A DNA stretch of 61,497 bases from Oscillospiraceae bacterium (GTDB lineage Bacteria > Bacillota > Clostridia > Saccharofermentanales > Saccharofermentanaceae), in assembly GCA_902794115.1 (NCBI GenBank), contig CADBGD010000001.1, positions 1-61,497 of the forward strand, in the 5' to 3' direction. The position numbers and the translations under genes were made by a program. Numbering within the stretch: position 1 is the stretch's first letter; every line of letters starts with the position of its first letter. Below the pieces are notes generated by a model that worked only from the letters and a program-made list of their open reading frames with translations, was not told the origin of the DNA and did no database searches. Below are positions 37,175 through 60,552 of the stretch, in pieces.

Positions 37175-37891
37175 TCATTTACTTTCCATCTCAGAAAACG
37201 ACTCTTTCCATCGATCGATATCCGACCTCGTAAGAAAAGTTATCCCGGTACGATGATTCGTTTCTTCTTCCCCTGAAACACAAAGAGCCATCTTGTGATG
37301 TGCATCCAGATCACATGTTTGAAAGAAGAAACGGGTATTCTGCTTCCCGTCAACAAAAAGACAGATCTGTTCCGGTTTCAAACGGAATGAAAAGGAATTC
37401 AGCGGAATACTCATTCCCATTCCTATATTTTTCGTATAACTCTCTTTCAACGTCCATAACGAATAGAACGCAGCCTGTCTTTCCGCCTCAGGAAGCATGT
37501 GAAGATAGGCTATCTCCTCTTTCGCAAAATACTCATCTGCAACAGAGATCTCGATTTCTTCCATCTTCTCCACGTCAATGCCCAGGCTCCGGTCACCAAG
37601 TGCACACACCACCCAATCTCCGGAATGAGATACGTTGAAAAAAATGTCTTTATGATCTTTCAGATACGGTTTTCCATATTCCGTATTCAAAATGCGGCAG
37701 TCCCGGATAGCATATTTTTCCCACAGTGCATACCGGCAAACGATCTCGGCAAACAGACTTCTGATCTTATCCTCATCGAAGCGGAATCTGCTGATTTTGT
37801 CTCTCCGCTCCTCCGAAACGAAGGCAAGATAATCGGAAACCTCCTGAAATCCGCTGATACTATGAATATTGTACGCATACTGATATATCAT
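37175..37891 (-). CDS. Sfp-type 4'-phosphopantetheinyl transferase
   Basis: GKPYL, FNVSHSGDWVVCAL, GIDVEKM and WTLKESYTKNIGMG motifs. Confidence 0.9.
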   Translation of the reverse strand: MIYQYAYNIHSISGFQEVSDYLAFVSEERRDKISRFRFDEDKIRSLFAEIVCRYALWEKYAIRDCRILNTEYGKPYLKDHKDIFFNVSHSGDWVVCALGDRSLGIDVEKMEEIEISVADEYFAKEEIAYLHMLPEAERQAAFYSLWTLKESYTKNIGMGMSIPLNSFSFRLKPEQICLFVDGKQNTRFFFQTCDLDAHHKMALCVSGEEETNHRTGITFLTRSDIDRWKESFSEMESK

Positions 37892-37907: not shown

Positions 37908-39230
37908 TCACCCTTCTTTATTCTCCTGCTTCTTCCGCAGGATTTTCATAAGCATCTCCCGGGAAACCTGACGGTTCACGCCTGCCTGATTCACAGCCGT
38001 TTCGTATTTCTTCTCCTGCCTGGGTAATACATAGGGTTCAATTTCAGGAATAACCGTCTTCCATACCCTGGCAGAATACTCTTCCTGATTCAGGTCCCTG
38101 TATTGCAAACATTTTTCTTTCATTCTGCCATCCATCAGCCGGGTAATACCCTCAGCTATGTTTTCCGGATCCCACATCTTCGGAGAATACTTTTCAGCAA
38201 TTCCCAGAGCACTCAGGCGGTCCGCATTGTCGGGTCCATCTGTCAAATGCGGCATCAGGAGCTGCGGCAAAGCCGCGTCAACCGCTTCGTTAATTGTTCC
38301 CATACCACCGTGATGAATAATCAGATCCACTTTATTCATCAGCGCGCGCAAAGGGACGTGACGCACACACAGTATCGTGTCCGGAACAGTTTCGGGAATA
38401 TATTCATCATACGGCGTGACAGCAATAGCATAGATATCCGCCATCGAACATGCCTGGATCGCCGTCTGATAAAACTCTTTGCTGACCATCCGGCTGCTTC
38501 CTCCGGTCACGATGACGGTTTTTTTCTTCTTATTCTTTGCTTCCTCCAGAAAAGCACTGACCTCCGGATCAAACTGCACCATTTCCTTTGGCTGTTCCGC
38601 AGCTAAAAAACCGATGGGAACAGCGCATTCCGGCCAGGTTTCATCCGCCTGGGCGTACCACTTCGGCCAGCCGCACAGAATCTTTCCGGGAGAATAGAGC
38701 CAGTCTTTCCAGTTGCTGATTGGTGTCAGTCCAAGTTCTGTCCTTGCCTGGTTGATTTCCTCACAGAATTTTTTTCCAAACAACTGGTCATGTAACTCCA
38801 TATGCGAGAAATAATTCGGAGCAAGAATCATGGATGCATAAGGCAGATGATTCTTTTCTGCCGCAATAAGGCCGGAGATACTCGATCGGTGACGGGCAAT
38901 GATAATGCTGTCCGGTGTGCAGATAGTCTCGATCAGTGCAACCTCGCGAAGGAGTCGTTCTTTTCCGTGATACAGTGTATGGAACCTAATATACTCCTCC
39001 TTTTTCCCGATCGGATCAGCAAGGAGTGCCAGGTCACGGTTCTGCTGTTCATACTCTTCCTTCGTATCAACAGCAATAAACTCCAGTCCTGCTTCTTTCG
39101 CTACATTCTCATACACACAGTGTGTCAGGATCGTGACCTTATGCCCTTCTTCTTTCAGCATTTTACCGAATCGGATAAAGGGATACACATCACCGCCGGT
39201 CCAATGAGTAACCAGTATAATATTCGACAT
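37908..39230 (-). CDS. GT1-family (GT-B fold, COG1819/Gtf-MGT-like) glycosyltransferase
   Basis: N-terminus ILVTHWTGGDVYPFIRFGKMLKEEGHKVTILTH and donor-binding motif HHGGMGTINEA. The ATG overlaps the upstream stop by 1 nt (TGATG). Confidence 0.85.
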   Translation of the reverse strand: MSNIILVTHWTGGDVYPFIRFGKMLKEEGHKVTILTHCVYENVAKEAGLEFIAVDTKEEYEQQNRDLALLADPIGKKEEYIRFHTLYHGKERLLREVALIETICTPDSIIIARHRSSISGLIAAEKNHLPYASMILAPNYFSHMELHDQLFGKKFCEEINQARTELGLTPISNWKDWLYSPGKILCGWPKWYAQADETWPECAVPIGFLAAEQPKEMVQFDPEVSAFLEEAKNKKKKTVIVTGGSSRMVSKEFYQTAIQACSMADIYAIAVTPYDEYIPETVPDTILCVRHVPLRALMNKVDLIIHHGGMGTINEAVDAALPQLLMPHLTDGPDNADRLSALGIAEKYSPKMWDPENIAEGITRLMDGRMKEKCLQYRDLNQEEYSARVWKTVIPEIEPYVLPRQEKKYETAVNQAGVNRQVSREMLMKILRKKQENKEG

Positions 39231-41065
39231 CAGTCTTCTCCATTCATCAATGCTTCAATTTCCTCATCCGACAGACCGGAAAGAAGATTTTCCTCAACCA
39301 GCTTCGCCATTTCCTCGACTGTCATCGGGCGGGAGAAGATCTCTACGAGCGCAATTGTTGTTCCGAAAGCATTATTCATTTTCTTGACCAGACGGTTCGC
39401 CAGAAGCGAGTGACCGCCTAACTCAAGGAAGTCATCACATACACTGACCTGCTCCAGATTAAGAAGTCCCTTCCAGATATCTGCAACCATCTCTTCGATC
39501 TCATTTCTGGGGGCGACATATTCATGAGCATTATCCGCGCTTTCATCTTCCATGCTCATCAGTGCCTTACGATCCACCTTCAAATTGGCAGTCATCGGGT
39601 ATTCATCCACAAAGCGGAAGATATTCGGTATCATGTAGTAGGGAAGCAGCTCCTCCACAAAAGCCTTCAGATCAGATACTGCCGGACGCTCCTCTGATTT
39701 CGTTTTGATAAAGGCCTTGATCTTTGCCTCCGCATTTTCTCCGGTAACGACTACCACAGCCTGCGCCACATCTTTATGCTTCGAAATAGCAGCTTCGATT
39801 TCACCCAGTTCAATACGGTATCCGTGCACCTTGACCTGGAAGTCACTTCTTCCCACATAAACGATATCAGTCTCATTCACACACTTGACAATATCGCCTG
39901 TCTTATAGATACGTCCACGGCCGGGTTCAACCGGATCGGGAATAAAACGCTCATCTGTCAGTTCCTTATTCTCAAAGTATCCACGTGCCACACCGATACC
40001 ACCGATATAGAGATCTCCCTCCATTCCGGTTTCCACCGGTTTCATATTCTGATCCAGCACGTAAATATCCGTCTGATCGATCGGTGCGCCAATCGGAATA
40101 TAGGTGTCTTTCTTTGTAATCTGGTACATAGTCGAATAGATCGTTGTCTCTGTCGGTCCATACACATTCCACAATTGCTCACACCCAAGATCCAGTAAAG
40201 ACTGCGCGAGGCTGATGCTCCAGGGTTCACCGCCGATGAGCATCTTCATGCCATCCAAATCCGGTATTTCGGCATCCAGTAACATATATGCTGTTGACGG
40301 CGTGAATCCGCAAAGATCGATTTTCTCATCTGCTATCAGTTTTGTCAGGAGTGCACCATCTTTTGCTGTTTCGTTATCGGCAACGATCAACGTACCTCCG
40401 TTGATAAGCGGGAGGAACATTTCAGAAATCGAAATATCAAAGGTGATCGTAACTACAGTAAGGCCTCTTTCCGAACCATTCAGATGCAGGTTATCGCTTA
40501 CGCTCAACAGGTAGTTCACCATACCTTCATGCTCCACTTCGACGCCTTTCGGTTTTCCCGTAGAACCGGATGTAAAGATCACATATGCAAGCTGGTGGCC
40601 GCCGCTTAACAGATTCTCGCTGACATAGTTCTCACCATGCAGTATCTCTTCCCAGATGCTGTCGACACAAATCATTTTGGCAGATAATGCAAATGCATCC
40701 TCGTATTTCTTTTCCGTAAGGACCGTGCCGATATGTGACTTTTCAATGATGTACTTGTTCCGCTCGCTCGGATGAGCCGGATCCAACGGCACATATGCAC
40801 CACCGGCCTTAATCACAGCCAGAAGAGAAATGATCATCTTTTCGGAACGGTCCATATAGATTCCGACAAGCGATTCTTTCTGCACACCGGCATCCTGAAG
40901 AATTTTCGCTAACCGTGATACGGCGCCGCAAACCTCTTCGTATGTCATTGAAGTTGAATGGAATTTTAAAGCTTCTTTCTGCGGCTGTTCTTTCGCCCGC
41001 TGCTCCAAAAGTCCAATCAGTGTTACTCCTTTTGTATCTCTCTGTTTACCATGAAAAATGCTCAT
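39230..41065 (-). CDS. Stand-alone NRPS adenylation-thiolation (A-T) protein
   Basis: GGGAGGA RBS. A3 LAYVIFTSGSTGKPKG, A5 NVYGPTETT, A7 YKTGD, A8 GRSDFQVKVHGYRIELGEIE, A10 NLKVDRKAL. Carrier motif FLELGGHSLLA (Ser553). Confidence 0.93.
   Translation of the reverse strand: MSIFHGKQRDTKGVTLIGLLEQRAKEQPQKEALKFHSTSMTYEEVCGAVSRLAKILQDAGVQKESLVGIYMDRSEKMIISLLAVIKAGGAYVPLDPAHPSERNKYIIEKSHIGTVLTEKKYEDAFALSAKMICVDSIWEEILHGENYVSENLLSGGHQLAYVIFTSGSTGKPKGVEVEHEGMVNYLLSVSDNLHLNGSERGLTVVTITFDISISEMFLPLINGGTLIVADNETAKDGALLTKLIADEKIDLCGFTPSTAYMLLDAEIPDLDGMKMLIGGEPWSISLAQSLLDLGCEQLWNVYGPTETTIYSTMYQITKKDTYIPIGAPIDQTDIYVLDQNMKPVETGMEGDLYIGGIGVARGYFENKELTDERFIPDPVEPGRGRIYKTGDIVKCVNETDIVYVGRSDFQVKVHGYRIELGEIEAAISKHKDVAQAVVVVTGENAEAKIKAFIKTKSEERPAVSDLKAFVEELLPYYMIPNIFRFVDEYPMTANLKVDRKALMSMEDESADNAHEYVAPRNEIEEMVADIWKGLLNLEQVSVCDDFLELGGHSLLANRLVKKMNNAFGTTIALVEIFSRPMTVEEMAKLVEENLLSGLSDEEIEALMNGED
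39290..39514 (-). other. Carrier (T/PCP) domain of the A-T protein; the acidic tail occupies 39233-39295
   Basis: LGGHS with Ser553 (codon 39407-39409). The tail reads EENLLSGLSDEEIEALMNGED. Confidence 0.8.
39551..41032 (-). other. Adenylation domain of the stand-alone A-T protein (approximate)
   Basis: Core motifs A1-A10. Hand-extracted specificity code D-I-S-G-L-G-V-I-Y-K. Confidence 0.8.
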
Positions 41066-41119: not shown

Positions 41120-44100
41120 TTATGTAATGGAAAAGGCCTTCTGTATCCTTCTGTAGAATTCCTCATCAGAAACCCCGTGCATATGGAATCCCATACCCAC
41201 GTAGACCTTATCACCATCAAGACAGCATTCGATGCCTTCCTGCGCACTCTGACTGCCCAAATTGTATATCTCGATCTGATTCATTTCTTCACTCATCATA
41301 TCGATCGATTCTTTCAGGTTCACTACCGGTACATCATCACAAATACCTGAAGCATATTCATCTCCAAGGAAATGGTATTCCGCGCTCCCCTCTTTCAGCT
41401 TATCGATCGCCTCATCGTAGAAACAGATCTCCTGCCTCTTTTTGTCGTACACACAGGGAATGTAGTCGATGTAATATCCGATCGTATTCATTGAACGGTC
41501 ATCCCGGCAGTGGTACAGCATAAAGAACGGTATCGAACTCAGGTCTTTCGTATCACTGATTTCACTGAACTTGGACATAAGCCATCTAACATCGTAAGTG
41601 ACATTCTCGTCCTTCTTCAGCGTGACACTAAAGGACTTGTTTTCATATGTACCGGCAGATCTCGCTTTATAAAGCTCAATACTGGACAGGATCGTCCCGC
41701 TGTCTTCTTTGCTGTGTACAGACTTTTCTGCCGTATTCCGGCACTGTATGTAATCGCTGTACGTCAGATCATCCGGCTTTGTGCTCCCTGACTGGTTAAG
41801 GTATGTCTCCAGAAGATCTGCCGCCACATCACAGCTGCTTCGATCCCACAGTGCATGATTGGCCGCGATGTACACATCAAAGGAGCCGGTACCCGACTCG
41901 GTAATCAGGATCACAGGTAAAATATCTATTCCGGATCTAACCTCATGTGCAAAAAGACATGTCGCAGCAGACTCTCTGCTGACTGCCTGAGATGCGGATA
42001 GATACGGAATTTTCCATTCACCAAATGAATACTCCGTGATTTTTTCCTGCTCATCGGAATAACAGGAACGCAGTGCACTTTGATCCCGCACCATATCAGT
42101 CAGTGCTTTCTGGATCTGCGAAACCGTAGCTCCCGAAATGTGGAAACATACACCGATGATCGAAGATTCATCTGTGGAAAGATGCAGATAATACTTCTGC
42201 ATGTTGTTCGGCTTGTAACTGCTGACGATACTCTTTCCCTTCAGATTGTTCTTATATTCAGCTATGGCTTCAATAACGCCTTCGTTATGGACTTTTTTCC
42301 CTTCGATCACCGGCGGCTCAAACATGGAGATCTTAATTGCTGACTTGTCGGCATTCACAGAGGAAGATATCTCTTCATCCGCATCCATTCCTAAAACCTG
42401 AGCCAGTTGCGAAATCGTCCTGTACGTGTGCAGGTCTTTTGTCGAAACAGGAATGTTGAACAGTTTCAGTTTGGCAGAAACACGGATCGCTTTCAGTGAA
42501 TTTCCGCCCAGTTCAAAGAAATCATCCTGTATGCCGACTTTCTCCACATCAAGAATCTCTTCAAATACAGAAGCCATCGTCCTTTCCGCCTCATTTCGCG
42601 GCGCGATGTACTCTTTTCCGGTACTTGCTTCAATTACCGGAAGGGCCCGCTTATCCAGTTTTCCGTTTCTGTTTACCGGTATCTTTTCAATCCGCATCAT
42701 ATACGAAGGGATCATGTAATCCGGAAGATTTTTTCCGAGTTCACTTCGGATCAGAGAAATGTCCATTTCGTCCTGGCTGACGAAATACGCGTAAATTGCC
42801 TTATCACCGGACGATTCTTCTCTAACGATCACAGCACAATCCTTAATGCCTTCAATCTCTCTGAGGCGGCTATCGATCTCTCCCAGTTCAATTCGGAAGC
42901 CTCTCACTTTGACCTGTTCATCGATTCGTCCGAGATACTCCACATTGCCATCCGGAAGCCATCTTGCAAGGTCACCCGTGTGATACAGTCTTCCTGTTCC
43001 AAACGAATTGGGAGCAAATTTCTCCCCGGTCAGTTCCGGACGGTTCAAATAGCCTCTTGCCAATCCGTCTCCGGCAATACAAAGCTCGCCGGGAACACCG
43101 ATTCCACACAGATGATCTTTATCCACGATATAGATCTGCGTATTGCTGATCGGTTTTCCGATAGGGATGCTGGCATATTCTCCCTCAATCTGGAAGCAGC
43201 TTGACCATACTGTAGTTTCGGAAGGACCGTATACGTTTTCGATCACGGCATCCGAGGCTGCCTTCAATCTGGAAACCACTTCCATACCTACAGCTTCGCC
43301 TCCAAGCATGATGTACCGCATTCCGGCAAACACTTTCGTTTCCGGATCCTGTGCAAAGAACCCTTTTATACGGCTCGGCGTAGTCTGCAGGATCTCGATC
43401 CCGTTTTCCACAACGAGTTTTTCAAATGCAGCAAGGTCACTTTGCTCTTCACTTGTGGCCACATATATAGTCATACCATTGCAAAGAGTTAATATTGCTT
43501 CTGTGACAAAGATATCAAACACAAGGTTCGTGACAGACACAAAGCGGCGAAGTCCGTTTTTGTATGCGTATGTCATCGTACTCTTATCTGATACAAAAGA
43601 GTAGTTCACAACATTTTGATTCTTGATCATGACACCTTTCGGTTTTCCGGTTGTGCCCGATGTATAAATACAATAGAGCAGATCCTCCGGGCATGTCACA
43701 TGTTCCGGATTGGAAGAGGTGCCGGAATACAGTTCCGGATCAGCCAGATCAATTCTAATGATATCTGTATCCAGGCTTGTCTTGTACGTCAGCACAGCCT
43801 TAGGAGAAGCATCTTCCAGCATATACTCGATTCGGTCCTTCGGATACGCAGGATCCATGGGAAGATACGCTCCTCCTGCTTTCATAACTCCGTAGATGGC
43901 AATAATCATTTCCAGGCTTCTTTCCGTAAAAACGGCAACAAAGTCATTCGGTTTCACGCCCAGTTTTCTCAATCGGTCAGCGAGCTGGTTGGCTTTTTCA
44001 TTGAGCTCGGCATACGTGAGGCTCTGTCCATCGTATACAACAGCGGTTTCATCAGGTGTATTTGCGACTGCCTCTTCAAACATCTCCACCACGGTCTTTT

Positions 44101-47100
44101 CCTTCGGATACTCTATGGCAGTACTGTTGAATTCTGAAAGAATCCGGGCTTTTTCCTCCTCACAGATCACCTGTACCTGATCGATCCGTAAAGAAGGAGT
44201 CTCCGTCAGTTCTTCCAGTACAGCGATATAGTGCTTGAGAAGATTCTCCGCGCTTTCTTCTCTGAACAAGGCTGTACAGTACTCCAGTCCAATATCAAAA
44301 TCGTCTTCATGTCCGTTGATGTTGAACGTAATATCGAATTTGGCGACCGTATCCTCCGATTCGGCATATTCTGTTTCCGCACCGTTCAACCGGATCTGTT
44401 CGGTCTCATTGTTTTGGAGAACGAGCATAACATCAAACAGCGGGTTTCTGGACATATCCCTTACAACATGAACTGACTCGACCAGTTCCTCAAAAGGATA
44501 CTCCTGATTCTCGTAGGCTTTCAGACAGGTGTCCTTGATTTCGGAAAGAAATTCCAGGAACGTCTTTTTTCCCTCCGGTTTGCCACGCAAGGCCAGTGTA
44601 TTGATAAACATACCCAGCATACCTTCCGTATCCTTGTGGGTACGGCCACTGATCGGTGTACCGATCACAATATCCTCCTGACGACTATACTTTCCCAGAA
44701 GGATCATCGCAGCAGAAAGCAGTACCATAAATTCCGTCGTGCCGGTCTTGGCGGCAAGATCACGGATCTTTCTTCCCAAAACCTCGCCGGTACTGTTAAA
44801 TACCATAGAACCACGATAACTCTGCTCCTGCGGTCTGACGAAATCCAGAGGCATATCCAATACCGGGATCTCATCATCAAACTGATGTTTCCAATATGCC
44901 GCCTGTCCGCTAAGATCACGATTACGCATCCATTCACTGTAGTCTTTGAACTGATGGGTCAGCGCAGGGAGTTTCTCGCCATTATACAGTGCATTCAACT
45001 CCCGGATAAAAGTACCCACACTCATGCCGTCACCTACAATGTGATGCATATCAATGTTCAACAGATAGTATCCGCTCCGCTCGATGAGCTGAACCCGGAC
45101 AAGCGGGAGTTCACTCAAATCAAATGGGCGGACAAAATCGGAAATCAGCTTAGCTTCATCTGTTTGCGTATCCTGGATATACTCAAAATCCGCATCTGCA
45201 TGATTCAGGATTTTCTGCACCGGTTCCCCGTCCACCATGAGGAATTTTGTCCTCAATATCTCATGCCGGTCGATCAGATCCTGCAATGCGCTTCTGAATG
45301 CATCCGGATTCACCTCACCATGAAGTATCAGATGCTCCGGCATGTTATACAAAATGTCATCCGGATTCATCTGGCAGACGAGATATGTTCTTTTCTGGGC
45401 GGAAGACATCGGATAGTATTCCTTCTCTTCTGCATGCGGAATCGATACAAACTCTTCTTCCTTTTTCCCGTTTACGATTTCAGCCAGTTTTTCCGGAGTC
45501 GGACTGCTGAAAACAAATTTTAACGGGATCCTCTTTCCGGTTTCCGCCTCTATACGGTTTACCAGTCTGGTTGCACGCAAAGAATGGCCGCTAAGAGCAA
45601 AGAAACTGTCCTTAACGCTGACTTTCTCTACATTCAGGATCTCACTGAAGATGCGGCAGATAATTTCTTCTGTTTCATTACTCGGTGCTACATATTCGCC
45701 GCCGGTTTTTGCTTCGATATCCGGCAATGCACGCTTATCGACTTTTCCGTTTCTGGTCATCGGTATTTTTTCGATCTGCGTCATATAGGACGGCAGCATA
45801 TAATCCGGAAGCGATTTTGCAAGTTCATCCCGGATCATCGGAATGCGGACAGCCTCATCACTGACAACATAAGCATAGATCGCCTTTTCTCCGTTGCTGT
45901 CATTTCTTGCAATTACCGCACAATCTTTGATTTTATCGATTTCCCGGATACGGCTCTCGATTTCACCCAGTTCAATTCGGAAACCACGGATCTTCACCTG
46001 TTCATCGATTCGGCCAAGATATTCGATATTTCCGTCCGGCAGCCATCTGGCAAGATCACCTGTCCGGTACATTCTTCCTTCACTAAATGGATTCTTTACG
46101 AATTTCTCCGCTGTCAGATCCGGTCTGTGCAAGTATCCTCTTGTGATTCCTGCTCCGCCTGCACAGAGCTCACCCGGCACACCGACTCCACACAGTGTAT
46201 CACCCTGCAGAATGTATACCTGCACGTTGTGGATCGGTTTGCCTATCGTGATTCTTTCAGGTGTTTCCCCCTTCTTACATATCCAGTTACTGATACATAC
46301 CGTTGCCTCAGTCGGGCCATAGGAATTAATGTACCCGCTGTTTGCCAGTACAGCTTCCACAACCGACATCGGAGCTGCTGACCCGGCTGTGAGGACATAT
46401 TTATTCAGAACAAAACGGCCCTGCTCATAGTATTGCGGCGGGAAATAAGATACGTTGATCTTTTTCTCGGAAACGTATTTCTTCATGGCATCCAGATCAC
46501 GAATTGTCTCATCTGTCGGTATATACAGAGACGCACCGTTCATAATCGCGGTCAGCATTTCCCAAACCGATCCATCGAAGATGTAATTCGAAAAAAGCAT
46601 GGCATGGTCTTCTTCCGTGATACCCAGTTCTTTTCTCATATAGCAGGCAAGATTGCAGACATTCTTGTGCTCGATCAGCACGCCTTTGGGCTTACCTGTG
46701 GTTCCGGAAGTAAAAATACAATACACAAGATCATCCGGGGTATTTGTATGTTCCGGATTTTCTACCGGGCCCGCAAAAATCTTTTTTTCAGCCAGATCGA
46801 TCACCGGAATATCTGTACGGATCTTCGTATTGTAGGTCAGCACAGCCTTCGGCGCCGCGTCTTCCAGCATATATGCGATTCTGTCTTCCGGATATGTCGG
46901 ATCCATCGGAACATAGGCTCCGCCTGCTTTGATGATGCCAAAGATACCTATGATCATTTCCAGACTTCTCTCGGTGAGCATGGAAACAAATTCACCAGGT
47001 TTGACACCATACTGTTCCCGGAGAGAATGAGCAAGCTGATTCGCTTTTTCGTTTAATTCGCGATAGGTCAGTGCTTCCCCTTCAAAGAAAACGGCAATAT

Positions 47101-50100
47101 TCTCCGGTGTCTTATCCACCTGCTCTTCAAAGAGGTCTACCAGTGTCTTTTCAGTCGGATATGCGACTGAAGTATTATTAAAGTCAATGAGGACTTGTTT
47201 CTCCTCTTCCTTTCCGATCATGGAAATATCTTTGATCAGAGAGGATGGGGTTTCCGTCAGATTCATAAGAATGTGAATATAATGATCCAGGATCTTTTCT
47301 GCGCTCTCTTTCTTGAACAGCGCTGTACAGTATTCCAGACCAATGCCGAAATCACCGTCATCTTCATAGATGTCAAAGGACAGATCGATCTTGGAAATGG
47401 TGTCGGTAGTATCCGCAACCTGCACTTCCGTATTGCCCAGCCGGATCACTTCATCCTCGTTATTCTGCAGGACAAGTATCACATCAAATATCGGGTTTCT
47501 GGACAGATCCCGCTGAACATCTACAGCTTCAACCAGTTCTTCAAACGGGAACTCCTGATTCTCGTAGGCCTTCAGGCAAGTCTCCTTTACTTCCTGAAGG
47601 AAGTCCGTATACTGTTTTTTCCCTTCAGGTTTTCCCCGCATTGCCAACGTGTTGACAAACATACCCAGCATGCCTTCGGTATCCTTATGGGTACGCCCGC
47701 TGATCGGCGAACCGATCACTACGTCCTCTTGCCGGCTGTACTTTCCGAGAAGAATCATGGCTGCAGATAAAAGCACCATAAACTCGGTCGATTTCGTCTC
47801 AGCCGCCAGTTTCTTGATCTTTTCTCCCAAAGCCTTCCCGGTATGCACCATGGCCATGGCACCATTATGGCTCTGCTCCTGTGGTCTCGGGAAATCAAGA
47901 GGCATGTTCAATACCGGGATCTCATCCTCAAACTGACTTTTCCAGTACTTTGCCTGATCACTTAGATCACGGGAACGCATCCATTCACTGTAGTCCTTGA
48001 ACTGGTGTGTAAGCGGAGGCAATGTTTCTCCGTTGTACAGTGCATTCAGCTCCTTTGTAAAGGTGACTGCACTCATTCCGTCACCGACAATATGGTGCAT
48101 ATCCAGATTGAGAAGATAGTGATCCCCTCTGTTTATAAGCTGGACCCGGATCAGCGGCAGCATGCTCAGATCAAAAGGCTTCACAAATCGTGCGGTTAGA
48201 TCTGCCTCTTTGGATGTTTTATCTTCGAAATATTCAAAATCCGCCTCAACATGATCCAGGATCTTCTGCACCGGTTCTCCGTCCATCATGAGGAACTGCG
48301 TACGGAGTATTTCATGTCTGTCTATCAGCTGCTGCAGTGCTTTTTTCAATGCTTCCGGATCAACTTCACCTTTCAGGCGATAAGACTCCGGCATGTTGTA
48401 CAGAATTCCCTCCGGGTTCATCTGACAGATGAGGAATGTTCTTTTCTGGGCAGAAGACATCGGATAGTAATCCTTCTTTTCCGCAGCCGGAATGGATTCA
48501 AATTCAGCGGCCTCTTCGCCGTTAACATATTCAGACAGCATTTCCGGTGTCGGACTGCTGAAGATCGTTTTCAACGGTATTCTCTTCCCTAATTCAGACT
48601 CGATCCGATTGACCAGTCTGGTAGCACGAAGAGAGTGTCCGCCAAGAGCAAAGAAACTATCCTTGACGCTAACTCTTTTCACATTCAGTATTTCGCTGAA
48701 TATAGCACAAATGATTTCTTCAGTACTATTTCTCGGAGCAACATACTCATCCCCGGTCCGGGCTTCAATATCCGGAAGAGACCGCTTATCCAGTTTTCCG
48801 TTTCTGGTTACCGGAATACTCTCAATCTGCATCATATACGCAGGGATCATGTAATCCGGAAGATTTTTGCCCAGCTCATTTCTTACCTTGGAAAGAGACA
48901 ATTCCTCATCACTGACAAGGTAGGCATAGATTGCCTTTTCTCCGGATTGATCAGATCTTGCAATGACCGCGCAGTTTTTCACATTCCGGATCTGGAGAAG
49001 TCTGCTTTCCACCTCTCCCAATTCCACCCGGAATCCACGGATCTTCACCTGTTCATCGATTCTTCCGAGATACTCCACATTGCCATCCGGAAGCCATCTT
49101 GCCAGGTCACCGGTATGGTACATCCGGCCATCTCCAAATGGATTTTTAACAAACTTCTCATTCGTCAGTTCCGGCCGGTTCAGATATCCCCTGGCAACAC
49201 CGGCACCGGCAATACAAAGCTCACCGGGAACACCGATTCCGCACAACACATCTCCATTCAGGATCATTACCTGACTGTTCGCGATCGGTTTTCCAATCGG
49301 AATGGTTTCATTCTCATCAGAATAATCCACCTTATAGTATGTCGCACATACTGTCGTCTCTGTCGGACCATATGTGTTGTATATGCTTATATCCGTATCC
49401 AGGAGATCCTTGAAATATTCCTTCTTCAGCACATCTCCGCCGCTGATGAGTATTCTCATCTGCGTTTCCTTCAGATAATCCATTTCTTTTATCAGAAGCG
49501 GTGAACAGCTTATGATGTTGATTCTCTCATTTATGATCGTTGTTTTCAGTTTCACCGGATCCAGCAAATGATCTTTGTTTACAATGACCATCTTTCCGCC
49601 GCAGATCAATACCGGATACAGTTCCTCTACAGAGGTATCAAAGCCGATATATGCCTGCTGCAGGATAACAGACTGTTCCGTTATCCCGTAATACCGGACA
49701 AACTGGCGGACATATGCTGCCAGATTCCGCTGCTCAATCAGTACGCCTTTGGATTCTCCTGTCGTACCTGATGTGTAGATACAATACGCCAGATCCTTCC
49801 CTGTATTCACATGTGGCAGATTCTCCGTGTCACCGGTATATATCCGGCTATCAGAAAGGTCGATCACGGATATATCCGTGTTTAATGATGCCTGGTATGT
49901 CAGCACCGCCTTAGGCGTGGAATCTTTCAGAATATACGCGATTCTATCCTCCGGATAGGACGGATCAATCGGAAGATACGCAGCGCCGGATTTAAGAATG
50001 CCGTAGATGCCGATAATCATTTCCAGGCCTCTTTCGGCCACAATTGCCACCATATCATCCGGCTTCACGTCTAAATCTCTCAATTTCCGGGCCAATTGGT

Positions 50101-51682: not shown

Positions 51683-51722
51683 CTGTCTTTCCTTTTCTCT
51701 TGTTCCTTTTTCCGAAGTCAGT

Positions 51723-53660
51723 TTACATGTTGTATCTGGCAAAGGCCTCCTGGTAGGCAGCTGCATTGCCCAGATCGAAAGATTTCCCGTCCACCAGGAA
51801 TCCAATCAGATCCTTTTCTTTAATTGCTTTTCGAAATGCTTCTGTAAGATCGATTTCGCCTTTTTCATTTGTGTGATTATTTCTCACCGCATCGCCCAGG
51901 TAACTAAAGATTTTCTCATTCAGAACATAGGCGCCAAATGCCGCACAGCAAACATTCTCTTCCTTCTTTCGGGAGAGCATCAAATACTCTTTTGCATAAT
52001 CGGGTGTTGGTTTTTCAACTACTTCAGAACAGTTCAGAATACGTTCTTCCTTATCATCCCAGTGGCCGGAGAATACACCAAAAGAAGACACATTTTTCAC
52101 GCCTACCGTCTGCAATGCCACGATGGATTTCCCGTATATATCATATGTGTCCACGATCTGCTTTAAGCACGGAGTAGAAGTGTTGCTCCGGTACAAAGTA
52201 TCTCCCAGAAGGAGCAGTACCGGTTCCTTATTTGTAAAAGAAGCAGCCTGATATACAGCATGCCCGAATCCTTTCGGCTCGTACTGCTTTACAAAGGAGA
52301 TCTTCTTCGTGATTCGAGTCATCTTATCTTCATATGCGCGCATTTTCTCCGGAAGCTTTTCATAATGCTTTCTCGACAATGGACGCAAAAGCAGCTGTCT
52401 GTACATTTCTTCGTCATCCGGATTAATAATCAGGCAGATCTCCTCTATCCCGATCGCATCCAGTTGCTCAAGTAATACCAGGAGGATCGGCTTGACCAAA
52501 CCATCAAGATCTACGATCGGGCACATTTCCTTTTTCGTAAATCTCGTTTCGGGATATAACCGTGTTCCGAATCCGGCAACCGGTATAATCGCTTTATTGA
52601 TCGCCCTTTGCGGTTTCAATGTTAACGGATAGGCAGAAAGACCCAGCGAATGGCTCATGTAATCGATCAGATCGTCCTGGCATTTCTTGTCTTTTGCCAG
52701 AAACTGCACTGTTCCATCTCCCTGTGAACCGACGCCTTTTCCACCATAGGTAAGTTGTTTGATCGTAGTGTTATTGAGTACGGAATGGAGTACCGGTGCT
52801 TTTAATTCTTCCGGGCACATCGGCGCCACTTTCGCATCAAAGATCTCCTGGGCTTCTGTCATTAAGTGGCCCAAACCTTGTGCATCACCGTTTTTAATCA
52901 GTTTTCTGGCCTCTGTCGTAATGCGGATATTGTCCTCGCCCAGTGCCTCATGGAGAGTTTTCTCCTTCTCATTTCGGGCAAACGGATATCCGCTGTTCAG
53001 ATCGGCCAGGATCTTGATCGTATCTTTTTTTGCCATCAGATCGGCAAAAACGTAGTACAGTGGTTTTTTTACCGGAATCTGATCCACATGCATCTCGTTT
53101 CCATCAAAAGTCATCGAAACCGGGTGTGGTCCGAAGGCACAGGCCTGATCGACTCTTCCACATCGGGAAGGCGTTCTCTGTTCACCCCAGTACGCAATAT
53201 TCATGATTCCACGGGTATTCAGATTCAGATTGTACAACTGATTAAATGCCTGTGCGACAAGCACACAAATTGCTGCCGAAGAAGACAATCCCTTCTTCAC
53301 CGGCAGGTCTCTTTTTGTAATTTCAATAGAAACGCCGCCTACGTTATACCATTCGCACATATAGGATGCGACGCCGGCAACATAGCTGAAATATCCTCCC
53401 TGATGCGCAGTTTCACTGAGAGAGTCCAGATCCATCGGGCATTCAAAGGAGCCGTCTTTCAGTTCCTTGATCTTACTGGTTACTGAAAACATGTCCGATC
53501 TTTTTGCACGGGCATATATACCCTGCTGTGTACCTGTTACAATCGCACATCCAGGTGTGATTTCAGAATTAACTGTTCTACTTGTCCCTGCCCAGTCACT
53601 ATGCTCACCAAACAAACACAGGCGTCCCGGCACAAACAAATCAATCGTTTCGTTATCCAT
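51723..53660 (-). CDS. Bifunctional GHMP-family sugar-1-kinase / GalU-like sugar-1-phosphate nucleotidyl(uridylyl)transferase
   Basis: AGGAGGA RBS. The N-terminal half has VPGRLCLFGEHSDWAG (GHMP motif I), KGLSSSAAICV (motif II) and YGGKGVGSQGDG (motif III). The C-terminal half has KAIIPVAGFGTRLYPETRFTKKEMCPIVD and VVEKP. Confidence 0.85.
   Translation of the reverse strand: MDNETIDLFVPGRLCLFGEHSDWAGTSRTVNSEITPGCAIVTGTQQGIYARAKRSDMFSVTSKIKELKDGSFECPMDLDSLSETAHQGGYFSYVAGVASYMCEWYNVGGVSIEITKRDLPVKKGLSSSAAICVLVAQAFNQLYNLNLNTRGIMNIAYWGEQRTPSRCGRVDQACAFGPHPVSMTFDGNEMHVDQIPVKKPLYYVFADLMAKKDTIKILADLNSGYPFARNEKEKTLHEALGEDNIRITTEARKLIKNGDAQGLGHLMTEAQEIFDAKVAPMCPEELKAPVLHSVLNNTTIKQLTYGGKGVGSQGDGTVQFLAKDKKCQDDLIDYMSHSLGLSAYPLTLKPQRAINKAIIPVAGFGTRLYPETRFTKKEMCPIVDLDGLVKPILLVLLEQLDAIGIEEICLIINPDDEEMYRQLLLRPLSRKHYEKLPEKMRAYEDKMTRITKKISFVKQYEPKGFGHAVYQAASFTNKEPVLLLLGDTLYRSNTSTPCLKQIVDTYDIYGKSIVALQTVGVKNVSSFGVFSGHWDDKEERILNCSEVVEKPTPDYAKEYLMLSRKKEENVCCAAFGAYVLNEKIFSYLGDAVRNNHTNEKGEIDLTEAFRKAIKEKDLIGFLVDGKSFDLGNAAAYQEAFARYNM
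51726..52601 (-). other. Nucleotidyltransferase (UDP-sugar pyrophosphorylase-like) half
   Basis: G.GTR..P.T...KE..P motif, VEKP motif, and a GalU-like length (aa ~354-645). Confidence 0.8.
52626..53660 (-). other. GHMP (galactokinase-like) kinase half
   Basis: Motifs I-III as listed above (aa 1 to about 345). Confidence 0.8.
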
Positions 53661-53709: not shown

Positions 53710-54453
53710 TTATTTGATCAAATCATCGAAACGGGCAAACTTGATTCCCATATCCACAAAAGCCTTTATGATAGGTCCAAACATCTCATTTGTCTGCGGA
53801 TGATCATGGATGACTATGAGATCTGCCGAACCGGGATAGTTAAGCCCCATCCATCTGTCCGGAAGATCCAGCTCCATCATTTCCAGCACATCATCTAATG
53901 TACGGACTCCATATGGCGGATTCTCCTGATATACACACCACTCCATGGCATCATATGTCCAAAGCCAGTCCACACGCCCGGATTTCCGGAATGCATCAAA
54001 ATACGGGTAGGTGATTTCCTGAAATGACGGGAGCACATATCCGTTTTCTTTTAAAAAGGACTGTATGCTCTCGACCCGTTCTTTTTCCTCTTGCGAATAG
54101 TCCAGATCATAAAAACCACGGGTGACCCCTTCATTTCCATATGGAAAACGGAAAAACTTGGCCGGTCTCTTTACTCCCGCTTTTTCATAGATCCGTTCTA
54201 TCATCTGATCATTCAGCAGGATCTCTTCTTTTGCCTGTTCCAAAGTCAGCTCAGAGAAGTTCGGGTGGGAACATGCATGATTACCGATAATGTGGCCACT
54301 TTGAATGGTATAAAGAACATCATCTTCTCTGATATCCATAAATCGCTTCTCGCAAAACCAAACCGCCTGAATACCATACTGATTTAATATGTCCACTTTT
54401 TCACGGCGGGCCACAGAAGGGCCATCGTCAACTGTCAGGTACGCTTTTTTCAT
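53710..54453 (-). CDS. Polysaccharide deacetylase (CE4 / NodB homology domain)
   Basis: Start at MKKAYL (GGAGGT RBS). Motifs LTVDDGPS, GNHACSHPNF, FRFPYG and LIVIHDH. Confidence 0.88.
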   Translation of the reverse strand: MKKAYLTVDDGPSVARREKVDILNQYGIQAVWFCEKRFMDIREDDVLYTIQSGHIIGNHACSHPNFSELTLEQAKEEILLNDQMIERIYEKAGVKRPAKFFRFPYGNEGVTRGFYDLDYSQEEKERVESIQSFLKENGYVLPSFQEITYPYFDAFRKSGRVDWLWTYDAMEWCVYQENPPYGVRTLDDVLEMMELDLPDRWMGLNYPGSADLIVIHDHPQTNEMFGPIIKAFVDMGIKFARFDDLIK

Positions 54454-54492
54454 ATATACCTCCATGTTCACTTATACTGATTTTCTTTGTAT

Positions 54493-55866: not shown

Positions 55867-56099
55867 ACCAACTACCTGATCTATGGCTCCATTGCTTTTT
55901 GTCGGTTCTATGCACCCCCATATTTTCTGCACAGCCCGCTTTAATTTCGCACTTTGCTCAGCAAACAAAACCCAACCCACTGGGCCGCCGCGCAAAAAGT
56001 GTCATTATATAGAAAAAGAGACTACAGAAAAAAGTCGACAAAAAAACTACTTTTTTACCAAAAAATCATTAATCCTTTCTTCGTTTTCCTTCCTGCTTA

Positions 56100-59842: not shown

Positions 59843-60552
59843 TGTTTCTTCTCACCTTCTTTCAAGTACTTTCGAAGATAAGAAACGAACTCTGTATGGT
59901 TATTAAATGCAAAGAAATGGCTGCCTTTAAAGACGTGAAGAGAAAAATCCTGTCCGGTATACTTTTCCCATTCCTGCATATCCTCCGGGGGAGTTTCCTC
60001 GTCCTCCTCACCGAGAAGAGCCAAAAGAGGCACATGGATCTTCCTTTCTTCATAGGAACGCGTATACCGGGTAAACATCTGCACATCAGCATATAAGATA
60101 TCGGCAATCATATCCATCAGTTCCTCACATTCAAGGATCTCCGGTTCAAACTGTCCTCTGGAAATGATCGTCTGTAAAAGTTCTTCTCTGGATAATTCAT
60201 GTAATTGAATGCCTTTATTCCGCATATGAGGCGGCCGGCTTGCGGCAACAATGACTGCTCTGGGAAGCTTGTCTGTTTTCTTTTCCAGAACATATGCCGT
60301 CTCCAGCGCAATTAAAGCACCCATACTGTGCCCGTAGATTACATAATCAGAAGGGTTCTGCCGGAGGATCGTTTCAGAGATCTCCTCCGCTGCGGCTTCA
60401 ATACTGGAATAATAGGGATCACAAAACCGGCTGGCATGTCCGGGGTACTCAATAGGGCAAACTTCGATTTCCGGTTTCAATTCTGAAATCCAGTCTCGAT
60501 ATATACTTGCACTGCCTCCTGCATAAGGCAATGCAAACATCTGCATGCTCAT
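59839..60552 (-). CDS. Type II (stand-alone) thioesterase
   Basis: N-terminus FALPYAGGSASIYRDW, nucleophile elbow YGHSMGA, about 237 aa, GrsT/SrfAD-like layout. Confidence 0.9.
   Translation of the reverse strand: MSMQMFALPYAGGSASIYRDWISELKPEIEVCPIEYPGHASRFCDPYYSSIEAAAEEISETILRQNPSDYVIYGHSMGALIALETAYVLEKKTDKLPRAVIVAASRPPHMRNKGIQLHELSREELLQTIISRGQFEPEILECEELMDMIADILYADVQMFTRYTRSYEERKIHVPLLALLGEEDEETPPEDMQEWEKYTGQDFSLHVFKGSHFFAFNNHTEFVSYLRKYLKEGEKKQ

What the first reader, a model, noticed from the sequence alone, without database searches (positions are those of the whole stretch)
41123..42328. The NRPS ends in a condensation-like domain with NHxxxD instead of a TE or R release domain
After T3 (Ser3103) there are about 400 residues with no GxSxG and no NAD(P)H motif. 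The stretch SFDVYIAANHALWDRSSCDVAADLLETYL aligns to the C-domain core (HHxxxDG), keeping the catalytic second His and the Asp. Terminal C-like domains are known to release chains by macrocyclisation or by condensation with a free or carrier-bound nucleophile. Degenerate ones (X domains) act as recruitment platforms instead. Here the possible nucleophiles are the aminoacyl group on the stand-alone A-T protein, or a deacetylated amino sugar made by the neighbouring CE4/GT genes.
Basis: partly seen in the sequence, partly recalled or inferred. Interest (0 to 1): 0.65.

Follow-up and report, generated by a model that had tools for sequence, protein, structure and literature searches.

The report
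Divergent terminal condensation-like NRPS domain
The last 400 residues of this rumen-bacterium peptide synthetase are a real but very divergent condensation-type domain that standard domain models miss; it belongs to an unstudied family found at the end of peptide synthetases, where named mostly in clostridia, and probably releases the finished peptide in place of a thioesterase.

Summary
The 3561-codon ORF (window 41120-51805, minus strand; likely true start M42) reads (C-A-T)x3, followed by 402 residues with no GxSxG or Rossmann motif and with N3316-H3317-ALW-D3321.

Pfam, NCBIfam and a single-sequence PDB search find nothing in those 402 residues. Other evidence shows the domain is real:
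- An exhaustive profile search finds about 100 representative relatives. Nearly all have the domain as the last domain of an NRPS, after T or T-E.
- A 25-sequence family profile matches the NRPS's own C domains (hhalign 97.3%, E 1.6e-11) and solved C/E domains (E down to 3e-13).
- An AlphaFold model (pLDDT 87) matches only condensation-superfamily folds. The top hits are the chain-releasing domains Bamb_5915 and TqaA-CT.
- The catalytic His, the Asp and other conserved positions (provisionally the C2 Arg, C5 Arg/Gly and an active-site Asn) are kept across the family, whose motif is xHxxWDxxS.

Best reading: a catalytic chain-off-loading domain. The nucleophile is unresolved; cyclisation and an amino sugar or amine are about equally likely. 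The neighbouring A-T protein looks like the initiation module, not the acceptor. A stand-alone type II thioesterase is a rival release route. I rate this a new variant of a known kind, of moderate interest.

The parts
41123..42328 (-). Terminal condensation-like domain ('X', residues 3160-3561 of the ORF); the structured core starts at about residue 3175
   Evidence: No Pfam or NCBIfam hit. The family profile matches the internal C domains at 97.3% and PDB C/E domains at E 3e-13. AF2 pLDDT 87.4, pTM 0.87. The top 50 Foldseek hits are all condensation-superfamily folds.
41834..41860 (-). Active-site motif N3316-H3317-A-L-W-D3321-R-S-S, the equivalent of C3 HHxxxDG and of HxxxDxxS
   Evidence: Position checked. 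The family-wide motif is [HNQD]HxxWDxxS. D162 is invariant; H158 and W161 are conserved in at least 90% of sequences.
42059..42082 (-). C2-like motif QSALRSCY with invariant Arg (domain R87)
   Evidence: Aligned to RHExLRT of the internal C domains. R87 is invariant.
41456..41515 (-). C5-like motif YHCRDDRSMNTIGYYIDYIP (domain R275 and G284 invariant)
   Evidence: Aligned to GR...LGxFxN of canonical C domains. Invariant columns.
41318..41320 (-). Invariant Asn (domain N337); possibly the conserved active-site Asn of C domains (assignment from memory of VibH, not aligned here)
   Evidence: Invariant in the 25-sequence alignment. The hhalign alignment to canonical C domains stops at about residue 298, so the equivalence to the canonical Asn is my inference.
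42386..42604 (-). T3 carrier domain (Ser3103), the donor for the terminal domain
   Evidence: Pfam PP-binding x3. GGNSL at residue 3103.
41120..51682 (-). NRPS gene (C-A-T)x3-X from the probable ATG start (M42); gives 3520 aa
   Evidence: The 3520-aa representative P0003 has architecture C-A-T-C-A-T-C-A-T-X.
51593..51682 (-). About 30-aa basic N-terminal leader (MNNDEKRQLLLKMLSKKKQK...) before C1; putative docking element
   Evidence: A similar basic leader is present in the L010 relative. The docking role is inferred.
39230..41065 (-). Stand-alone A-T protein (611 aa); probable initiation module
   Evidence: Pfam AMP-binding, AMP-binding_C and PP-binding. Syntenic in L002, L003 and L010.
39233..39283 (-). 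Acidic C-terminal tail LSGLSDEEIEALMNGED of the A-T protein (COM-donor-like)
   Evidence: The LS[DE]EEIxA[LM] tail is conserved in the A-T proteins of the window, L003 and L010. It is absent from the last 40 residues of all 108 proteins on file, nearly all of which end in the terminal domain.
59839..60552 (-). Stand-alone type II thioesterase (237 aa); editing enzyme or rival release enzyme
   Evidence: Pfam Thioesterase 1.3e-39. The best PDB sequence matches include the type II thioesterases SrfD (surfactin TE subunit), RifR, YbtT and TesA.
54493..55995 (-). GT1 glycosyltransferase of the macrolide-GT family
53710..54471 (-). CE4 (NodB/PgdA-type) de-N-acetylase
   Evidence: Syntenic in L003.
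51723..53660 (-). Fusion of a GHMP sugar kinase with a GalU-like UTP-sugar-1-phosphate uridylyltransferase
37908..39230 (-). Second GT1 glycosyltransferase
37175..37891 (-). Sfp-type phosphopantetheinyl transferase
56163..59842 (-). Two fused ABC exporters

Best explanation
What it is. Residues 3160-3561 are a catalytically competent but highly divergent terminal condensation-type domain. It works like a fungal C_T domain but has a separate bacterial origin, and it terminates the assembly line.

Proposed sequence of events:
1. The Sfp-type PPTase primes the carrier domains.
2. The stand-alone A-T protein loads the first residue. It docks through its acidic LSDEEIEALM tail onto the basic N-terminal leader of the NRPS.
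3. C1-A1-T1, C2-A2-T2 and C3-A3-T3 extend the chain to a T3-bound tetrapeptide. Hand-derived A-domain codes suggest roughly hydrophobic-Lys-aromatic-Gly; this is low confidence.
4. T3 delivers the thioester to the donor side of the terminal domain. His3317, positioned by the Asp3321/Arg3246 pair, activates a nucleophile that is not a canonical downstream carrier-bound amino acid. The chain leaves as an amide or ester.
5. The two GT1 enzymes, the CE4 deacetylase and the UDP-sugar fusion enzyme decorate the product. The ABC pumps export it. The type II thioesterase edits mis-primed carriers.

Nucleophile. Within off-loading I put intramolecular macrocyclisation (N-terminal or Lys amine) at about 0.35. 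Transfer to a soluble nucleophile, such as a de-N-acetylated hexosamine or another amine, is about 0.30.

Shown here: homology, fold, conserved catalytic residues, strictly terminal position, synteny.
Inferred: catalysis itself, the donor, the nucleophile, the role of A-T, the order of tailoring steps.
For: Homology:
- hhalign of the 25-sequence family profile against the NRPS's own C domains: 97.3%, E 1.6e-11, 265 columns in register.
- The profile against PDB sequences hits BacC, GrsA-E, TycB1-C and TycA-E at E 3e-13 to 1e-6.
- Relatives reach the Pfam Condensation gathering score: P0010 31.3 bits and P0021 33.6 bits, against a cut-off of 30.6.
- The family HMM also hits 102 canonical C/E domains weakly, including the window's C1-C3.

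Fold:
- AF2 pLDDT 87.4, pTM 0.87.
- The top 50 Foldseek PDB hits are all condensation-superfamily folds. The best E-value is the enacyloxin release domain 6cgo (3e-17). The best TM-score is the macrocyclising TqaA C_T at about 0.62.

Catalytic residues:
- R87, D162, R275, G284 and N337 are invariant; H158 and W161 are conserved in at least 90% of sequences.
- The motif xHxxWDxxS holds across about 100 representatives.

Terminal role:
- Where the family domain wins (about 95 of the ~100 representatives), it is the last domain, after T or T-E, and none is followed by TE or R.
- Lines that truly start with A exist, such as P0073 (A-T-C-A-T-X).
- In the window, 4 T domains against 3 canonical C domains leave the terminal domain as the fourth, chain-ending catalyst.

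A-T as starter:
- Conserved acidic tail and basic NRPS leader.
- C1 best matches elongation LCL domains.

Tentative product link: relative P0016 lies in a Wukongibacter locus whose gene sizes and module count match the bdn cluster proposed for the cyclic depsipeptides baidienmycins (PMC11916717).
Against: - There is no biochemical evidence for any member of this family.
- The window's own sequence gets no Pfam or NCBIfam hit.
- A type II thioesterase sits near the terminal-domain NRPS in 6 of the contexts examined and could be the real release enzyme.
- A separately encoded A-T, A plus T, or A-KR-T module recurs near these NRPSs. In the bdn-like locus, counting domains (7 T, 5 C plus the terminal domain) would fit the terminal domain acting as an elongation C domain.
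- Single-module A-T-X proteins (P0020, P0030) cannot macrocyclise.
- One cluster has two NRPSs ending in this domain. That argues against simple end-of-line cyclisation as the family-wide role.
Confidence: 0.62

Rival explanations
1. Split elongation module. The terminal domain is the C domain of a fourth module whose A-T half is the downstream 611-aa protein. It condenses the T3-bound tripeptide with aminoacyl-S-(A-T). C1 would then be primed by an acyl-CoA or another donor, and the type II thioesterase or another enzyme would release the product.
For: - The A-T gene starts 55 nt after the NRPS stop codon, in colinear order.
- Stand-alone A-T, A plus T, or A-KR-T modules recur next to NRPSs ending in this domain.
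- In the bdn-like locus, the terminal domain is needed to make up n-1 condensation catalysts for 7 carrier domains.
- After an E domain, the terminal domain occupies the position normally held by a DCL domain.
Against: - The A-T protein has a conserved acidic C-terminal docking-like tail and no N-terminal extension.
- The NRPS has a basic N-terminal leader, and the terminal domain has no C-terminal tail.
- C1 resembles LCL elongation domains rather than starter domains, so it needs a carrier-bound donor. A-T is the only candidate in the cluster.
- An ordinary peptide-bond-forming C domain would not need to diverge beyond Pfam detection.
- A-T lies upstream of the NRPS in L010.
Confidence: 0.15
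2. Intermolecular release onto an amino sugar. A GT1 installs an N-acetylhexosamine and the CE4 enzyme removes the acetyl group. The terminal domain then N-acylates the freed amine with the T3-bound peptide. This follows the deacetylate-then-reacylate logic of Nod factors, teicoplanin and streptothricin; those precedents are from my own knowledge. This is a sub-case of the best explanation and is listed separately because it is the first reader's specific proposal.
For: - CE4, two GT1 genes and A-T are syntenic with the closest subfamily member in another genome (L003). Two fused GT1 domains and A-T recur in L010.
- No other N-acyltransferase lies within the window's cluster.
- The top Foldseek hit by E-value is a C domain that releases onto a soluble acceptor (6cgo).
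- A-T-X single-module relatives imply that external nucleophiles are used somewhere in the family.
Against: - More distant family members sit in loci where no sugar genes were seen in the flanks recovered.
- In L007 the 9 kb downstream of a 41%-identical terminal domain has no GT or CE4 gene.
- GT1 and CE4 are equally well explained as post-release tailoring.
Confidence: 0.3
3. Non-catalytic scaffold. The domain is a structural or recruitment module, like the glycopeptide X domain. It presents T3 to trans-acting enzymes (GT1s, CE4, type II thioesterase), and the stand-alone thioesterase performs release.
For: - A type II thioesterase co-occurs in most contexts examined.
- The first His and the Gly of HHxxxDG are replaced.
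- The sequence is extremely divergent.
Against: - The catalytic second His, the Asp, the C2 Arg, the C5 Arg/Gly and the Asn are conserved across sequences only 16-40% identical.
- The true X domain has HRxxxDD, lacks the catalytic His, and is followed by a TE (PMC11546977).
- No P450 or other obvious recruited partner is shared across the family's contexts.
Confidence: 0.1

Closest known systems
Fungal terminal condensation-like (C_T) domains, e.g. TqaA C_T (PDB 5dij/5ejd); also HC-toxin-type NRPSs ending in E plus a C_T/DCL-like domain
   Same: It is the last domain of an NRPS with no TE or R. It follows T or T-E. It has an HxxxDxxS motif with the first His replaced (N here; S in fungi, from memory). 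TqaA C_T gives the best TM-score to the model, about 0.62. The review of C_T properties is PMC11546977. The E plus C_T arrangement is noted in PMC10212144.
   Different: It is bacterial. At the sequence level it is only marginally related to TqaA (E 0.03), whereas bacterial E/DCL-type domains score E 1e-9 to 1e-13, so it probably arose independently. It has a near-invariant Trp before the Asp. Blockage of the acceptor channel and a macrocyclic product were not tested.
Bacterial chain-release C domains that use soluble acceptors: Bamb_5915 (enacyloxin, PDB 6cgo), VibH (1l5a)
   Same: Condensation fold, with a carrier-bound donor and a non-carrier acceptor. 6cgo is the top Foldseek hit (E 3e-17).
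   Different: Those are free-standing proteins with a canonical HHxxxDG motif. Here the domain is fused after T3. Sequence similarity is weak (6cgo E 0.0026, VibH E 0.53). The acceptor is unknown.
Canonical elongation C domains (LCL/DCL) and E domains of Bacillus-type NRPSs (TycB1, BacC, GrsA-E, TycA-E)
   Same: These are the closest by profile. The C1, C2, C3 and C5 motifs are shared, in order.
   Different: No A-T follows in cis. The E-domain EGHGRE glutamate is absent (YHCRDD here). The terminal domain coexists with a preceding E domain in about one third of relatives. The window's sequence falls below Pfam detection.
Glycopeptide-antibiotic X domain (Tcp12, PDB 4tx2)
   Same: A C-like domain near the end of an NRPS that makes a glycosylated peptide.
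   Different: The X domain has HRxxxDD and is non-catalytic, recruits P450s, and is followed by a TE (PMC11546977). Here the catalytic His is kept, the cluster has no P450, and there is no cis TE.
bdn cluster of Wukongibacter baidiensis M2B1 (baidienmycins, cyclic hexadepsipeptides; PMC11916717)
   Same: Its C-A-T-X protein P0016 ends in a domain of the same family (profile E 2.5e-20, motif QHALWD). It has a stand-alone type II thioesterase and a separately encoded A-KR-T module.
   Different: It is only about 19% identical to the window's domain. No sugar genes were seen in the flanks recovered. The cluster-product link in the paper is bioinformatic only, and the paper does not discuss release.

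Membership tests
Condensation-domain superfamily (Pfam PF00668 / CAT-like fold) | Two-lobed, V-shaped chloramphenicol-acetyltransferase-like fold | tested here: met
   AF2 model with pLDDT 87.4 and pTM 0.87. The top 50 Foldseek PDB matches are all C, E, C_T, Cy or PapA2 folds, with E 3e-17 to 2e-13.
Condensation-domain superfamily (Pfam PF00668 / CAT-like fold) | Active-site HHxxxDG with the catalytic second His and the structural Asp | tested here: met
   NHALWDR at residues 3316-3322. It aligns in register to HHIVYDG/HHIVGDG of C1-C3. The first His and the Gly are replaced.
Condensation-domain superfamily (Pfam PF00668 / CAT-like fold) | Significant match to the family profile | tested here: inconclusive
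   A direct Pfam scan of the window's domain gives no hit at E<=1. The family profile matches C domains at 97.3%, E 1.6e-11. Relatives P0010 and P0021 pass the PF00668 gathering score. Homology is therefore established transitively, not by the curated model.
Fungal-type macrocyclising C_T domain | Terminal position after T (or T-E) in an NRPS lacking TE and R | tested here: met
   for the window. for about 95 of the ~100 relatives.
Fungal-type macrocyclising C_T domain | Acceptor-side channel closed so that only an intramolecular nucleophile can react | not testable with these tools
   Model coordinates are not exposed; only scores and secondary structure are returned.
Fungal-type macrocyclising C_T domain | Common descent with fungal C_T sequences | tested here: not met
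   The family profile scores TqaA at E 0.03 but bacterial E/DCL domains at 3e-13 to 2e-9. It is an analogue, not a member.
Glycopeptide X (recruitment) domain | Degenerate motif HRxxxDD lacking the catalytic His; followed by a TE; recruits P450s | tested here: not met
   The His is retained and is conserved in at least 90% of sequences. No TE follows. No P450 is present in the cluster.
Epimerisation (E) domain | Catalytic Glu of the EGHGRE motif paired with the His | tested here: not met
   The equivalent stretch is MLYHCRDD, with Leu at the Glu position. About one third of relatives already carry a separate E domain directly upstream.
Canonical elongation C domain of a split module | A dedicated carrier-bound aminoacyl acceptor supplied by a partner A-T | tested here: inconclusive
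   An A-T gene is adjacent. However, its docking-like tail and the NRPS N-terminal leader point to A-T feeding C1.
Soluble-acceptor release C domains (VibH / Bamb_5915 type) | Condensation of a carrier-bound acyl group with a free amine or alcohol | not testable with these tools
   Only fold similarity is available (6cgo is the top hit). No acceptor can be identified in silico.

The most novel reading that the evidence does not exclude
The terminal domain closes a sugar-bridged macrocycle. A GT1 glycosylates a side chain of the still-tethered peptide with an N-acetylhexosamine. The CE4 enzyme unmasks the amine on-line. The terminal domain then uses that sugar amine as the intramolecular nucleophile, releasing a glyco-bridged cyclic peptide. 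This would be a release chemistry and scaffold with no precedent. More broadly, the xHxxWDxxS clade would be a bacterial counterpart of fungal C_T domains that evolved independently and that current genome-mining tools do not annotate.
Probability: 0.07. Interest if true: 0.85.

Novelty: new variant of a known kind. Interest (0 to 1): 0.5.

Why it matters
Terminal condensation-type release is textbook for fungi and is known for a few bacterial systems. This clade has about 100 clusters at 50% identity and comes mostly from uncultured gut, rumen and sediment anaerobes. It is uncharacterised, and the window's own member is invisible to Pfam and NCBIfam.

Cluster-mining pipelines would therefore report these NRPSs as lacking any release domain and would mis-predict the products. 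Working out its nucleophile would have three uses:
- It would allow product prediction for a whole family of anaerobe NRPS clusters, including a conserved rumen glycopeptide-type cluster (A-T, (C-A-T)x3-X, two GT1, CE4).
- It could supply a new off-loading catalyst for NRPS engineering.
- It would test whether C_T-like release arose independently in bacteria.

Tried and rejected
Searches that led nowhere:
- Pfam and NCBIfam on the 443-aa tail gave no family; the only entry was DUF2461 at E 0.084, which is noise.
- phmmer of the tail against PDB sequences gave only chance hits at E>=0.5.
- The word-indexed homologue search found only two close relatives, both with the single sequence and with the 25-sequence alignment. 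The second search was wasted.
With the 4-sequence subfamily alignment it found only three genomes.
- Exact-sequence look-ups failed for the window's thioesterase and for P0008, and P0011 was too long. The cluster's upstream edge beyond 61.5 kb therefore remains unseen.
- The supplement of the baidienmycin paper is not held, so its domain table could not be read.
- Literature searches for a described clostridial or rumen terminal C domain found nothing relevant.

Readings rejected:
- Epimerase: there is no EGHGRE Glu, and relatives have a separate E domain upstream.
- X domain: the His is retained.
- TE or R: no motifs and the wrong fold.
- A separate gene or an assembly artefact: the T-X fusion is conserved in dozens of proteins.

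A correction to my own reading: P0105/P0008 is not evidence for a line that starts with an A domain, because the protein begins in the middle of an A domain.
Full report
**1. The observation**

The window carries a 3561-codon ORF on the minus strand (41120-51805). Its listed TTG start overlaps the upstream gene. The likely start is the ATG at 51682 (M42), which gives 3520 aa, the exact length of database representative P0003.

Pfam finds three Condensation, three AMP-binding (plus AMP-binding_C) and three PP-binding domains, and nothing after the third carrier domain.
- The T3 serine is at residue 3103.
- The motif is N3316-H3317-A-L-W-D3321-R.
- Residues 3160-3561 (window 41123-42328) contain no GxSxG and no glycine-rich dinucleotide motif.

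The bare motif is not significant by itself, because H...D..S turns up in 8% of shuffles of the same residues. Direct searches of the tail against Pfam, NCBIfam and PDB sequences returned nothing.

**2. What it is**

*Relatives.* The word-indexed homologue search found only two relatives. P0001 is 42% identical and P0002 is 72% identical. Both come from metagenome contigs with the same kind of NRPS.

An exhaustive HMMER search of 1.84 billion representatives, using a 3-sequence profile, found 100 proteins at E<=1e-3 and 50 at E<=1e-10. In about 95 of these the matched region is the last domain, and in almost all it ends within about 30 residues of the C-terminus.

*Architectures.* I rebuilt domain architectures with HMMs made from the window's own domains. 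The domain, called X here, is always last. It is preceded by T in about two thirds of cases and by T-E in about one third. It is never followed by TE or R.

*Motifs.* Aligning the domain pieces shows a family motif [HNQD]-H-x-x-W-D-x-x-S, with HH in the majority. In a 25-sequence alignment only 16-40% identical to the window, several columns are conserved:
- Invariant: R87, P108, D162, R275, G284, N337.
- Conserved in at least 90%: Y25, N28, H158, W161, P267.

These map onto the C2 Arg, the C3 His and Asp, and the C5 GR...G motif of canonical C domains, in the correct order. The invariant Asn may be the conserved active-site Asn of C domains. That assignment rests on my memory of VibH and was not aligned here.

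*Homology to C domains.*
- The family profile matches the NRPS's own three C domains at 97.3% probability, E 1.6e-11, over 265 columns. The 3-sequence profile had given only 25%, though already in register.
- Against PDB sequences it hits bacitracin synthetase 3, the GrsA T-E didomain, the TycB1 C domain, the TycA E domain and others, at E 3e-13 to 1e-5.
- Several relatives individually get weak Pfam Condensation hits on the N-lobe, and two are above the gathering score.
- Conversely, the family HMM weakly hits 102 canonical C/E domains in the same proteins, including the window's C1-C3. The terminal regions score a median of 174 bits on the family HMM and mostly nothing on the C or E HMMs.

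*Fold.* An AlphaFold2 model built on the 25-sequence alignment is confident (pLDDT 87.4, pTM 0.87). Foldseek against the PDB returns only condensation-superfamily folds among the top 50. The best E-value is the enacyloxin chain-release domain Bamb_5915 (6cgo, 3e-17). The best TM-score is the macrocyclising fungal TqaA C_T (about 0.62).

The tail is therefore a genuine condensation-superfamily domain from a distinct clade, with its catalytic apparatus conserved.

**3. Source and surroundings**

*Organism.* The terminal domain is 99% identical at protein level to a match in a rumen MAG, Ruminococcaceae bacterium RUG14762. Named relatives are all Clostridia: Clostridium gasigenes, C. mediterraneense, Eubacterium sp., Ca. 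Scatonaster coprocaballi, Wukongibacter and a Clostridium sp. MAG. Most come from unnamed metagenome assemblies.

*The cluster.* The genes around the NRPS, all on the minus strand, are as follows:

| Window coordinates | Gene product |
|---|---|
| 60663-61478 | FtsX-type permease |
| 59839-60552 | Stand-alone thioesterase; best PDB matches include the type II thioesterases SrfD, RifR, YbtT and TesA |
| 56163-59842 | Two fused ABC exporters |
| 54493-55995 | GT1 glycosyltransferase, macrolide-GT family |
| 53710-54471 | CE4 de-N-acetylase |
| 51723-53660 | GHMP sugar kinase fused to a GalU-like uridylyltransferase |
| 41120-51682 | NRPS |
| 39230-41065 | 611-aa A-T protein |
| 37908-39230 | Second GT1 |
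| 37175-37891 | Sfp-type PPTase |

*Related loci.*
- Ca. Scatonaster (L003), the closest independent relative, keeps the order X-ending NRPS, PLP enzyme, A-T, GT1, GT1, CE4, PPTase, GNAT.
- L010 has two fused GT1 domains, A-T, a MATE exporter, a type II thioesterase, FkbH, an ACP, and a C-A-T-C-T-X NRPS.
- More distant members sit in loci where no sugar genes were seen in the flanks recovered. A PPTase, a type II thioesterase, or both follow in several (C. gasigenes L004, C. mediterraneense L012, Wukongibacter L005; L009 has neither).
- One cluster (L011) has two NRPSs that each end in X, plus a C-A-T-C-A-T protein.

**4. Role of the A-T protein**

Four observations bear on whether A-T is the starter or the acceptor:
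- The A-T proteins of the window, L003 and L010 end in a conserved acidic tail (...LSGLSDEEIEALMNGED, ...LSEEEIQALVDGE, ...LSDEEISAMLEEN).
- The NRPSs of the window and L010 carry a 30-45-residue basic leader ahead of the C1 motif.
- None of the proteins on file, nearly all of which end in X, has such a tail.
- C1's best solved-structure relatives are elongation LCL domains (DhbF, Txo2, TycC6), not starter domains.

Inference: A-T is the initiation module feeding C1. The line then has four carrier domains, three elongating C domains, and X as the chain-ending catalyst. P0073 (A-T-C-A-T-X) genuinely starts with an A domain and shows the same arithmetic in a single protein.

**5. Mechanism**

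The best-supported reading is that X off-loads the T3-bound tetrapeptide, with His3317 acting as general base for a non-canonical nucleophile.

For intramolecular cyclisation:
- The analogy with fungal C_T domains and with E plus C_T ends (PMC11546977; PMC10212144).
- The TM-score ranking.
- A Gly-like code for the last A domain (hand-derived, low confidence).
- The tentative link of family member P0016 to the cluster proposed for the cyclic depsipeptides baidienmycins. The locus architecture (5934 aa, 1514 aa and 1411 aa; seven modules; two A-KR-T) matches the paper's description. The paper's assignment is bioinformatic and is silent on release.

For an external nucleophile:
- Single-module A-T-X proteins exist (P0020, P0030).
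- One cluster has two X ends.
- The top Foldseek hit by E-value is a soluble-acceptor release domain.
- A CE4 deacetylase and GT1 enzymes are conserved in the window's subfamily. Together they could expose a sugar amine.

I cannot separate these two options with the tools available.

The rivals are:
- A split elongation module using the A-T protein as acceptor. Gene order supports it, and so does the recurrence of stand-alone A-T modules. In the bdn-like locus, X would be needed to give n-1 condensation catalysts.
- A non-catalytic scaffold, with release by the type II thioesterase.

**6. Comparison with known families, and novelty**

- X works like a C_T domain but is not a member of the fungal C_T lineage. 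TqaA scores E 0.03, against 1e-9 to 1e-13 for bacterial E/DCL-type domains.
- It is not a glycopeptide X domain, because the catalytic His is retained, there is no P450, and no TE follows.
- It is not an E domain, because it lacks the EGHGRE Glu and coexists with upstream E domains.

It is best called a new variant of a known kind: an uncharacterised terminal condensation-type clade, where named mostly clostridial, with an xHxxWDxxS signature, that standard domain libraries miss or barely detect. I found no paper describing it.

**7. Verdict**

The fold and the catalytic motif hold up. Release is plausible but unproven. The A-T nucleophile is unlikely. The trans type II thioesterase was overlooked.
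- Interest is moderate (0.5). A specialist would not be surprised by a terminal C domain. However, the clade's invisibility to annotation tools, its restriction to poorly studied anaerobes, and the conserved glycosylation/deacetylation context make it a worthwhile target.

Noticed in passing
window 51682-51805 (-): The listed TTG start of the NRPS ORF overlaps the upstream kinase/uridylyltransferase gene by 83 nt. The ATG at 51682 (M42, MNNDEKRQ...) gives 3520 aa, which matches database representative P0003 exactly in length.
   Followed up: partly
L002 4100-4300 (orthologous NRPS, 72% identical tail): The orthologue's ORF stops immediately after ...NHALWDRSS, and the rest of the domain resumes about 84 nt later as a separate 230-aa call (P0002). 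This is either a pseudogenised terminal domain or an assembly error.
   Followed up: no
L001 1461-1464; compare L007 249-2090: In L001 the E domain upstream of the terminal domain is split by a frameshift. In the related goat-omasum MAG (L007) the region (C-terminal half of a C/E-type domain plus the terminal domain) reads as one uninterrupted ORF, so T-E-X is the real architecture there.
   Followed up: partly
L011 (Logan SRR29082291 contig, 65.6 kb): One cluster encodes two NRPSs that each end in the terminal domain (P0029 C-A-T-C-A-T-E-X and P0018 C-A-T-X), plus a C-A-T-C-A-T protein. It also has a group of genes that resembles a methoxymalonyl-ACP biosynthesis set (my reading of the Pfam hits), and a type II thioesterase. 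This suggests two chains are joined or released separately.
   Followed up: partly
window 51723-53660 (-): A 645-aa fusion of a GHMP (galactokinase-like) sugar kinase with a GalU-like UTP-sugar-1-phosphate uridylyltransferase. This would be a one-protein salvage route to a UDP-sugar inside an NRPS cluster.
   Followed up: partly
window 39233-39283 (-) and 51593-51682 (-); L003 and L010 equivalents: A conserved acidic LS[DE]EEIxA[LM] tail on the stand-alone A-T proteins is paired with basic N-terminal leaders on the C-starting NRPSs. This looks like a docking code shared by these clostridial clusters.
   Followed up: partly
P0099 and P0084 (about 1190 aa, representative hits): Two A-T-X proteins begin with about 150-200 extra N-terminal residues that my domain HMMs did not assign. 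From memory they resemble an Sfp-type PPTase; I did not verify this with Pfam.
   Followed up: no
window 17657-18958 (+): A 433-aa protein with a C-type lectin domain (Pfam Lectin_C, 5e-13). This domain is uncommon in bacteria, and the gene lies outside the NRPS cluster.
   Followed up: no
window 24116-25327 (-): A fusion of a peptidase S51 domain (dipeptidase E / cyanophycinase family) with a NUDIX hydrolase domain.
   Followed up: no
window ~45580-45600 (-), T2 of the NRPS: The second carrier domain has LSGHSL instead of the usual GGHSL around the phosphopantetheine serine. The orthologue in L002 has the same.
   Followed up: no
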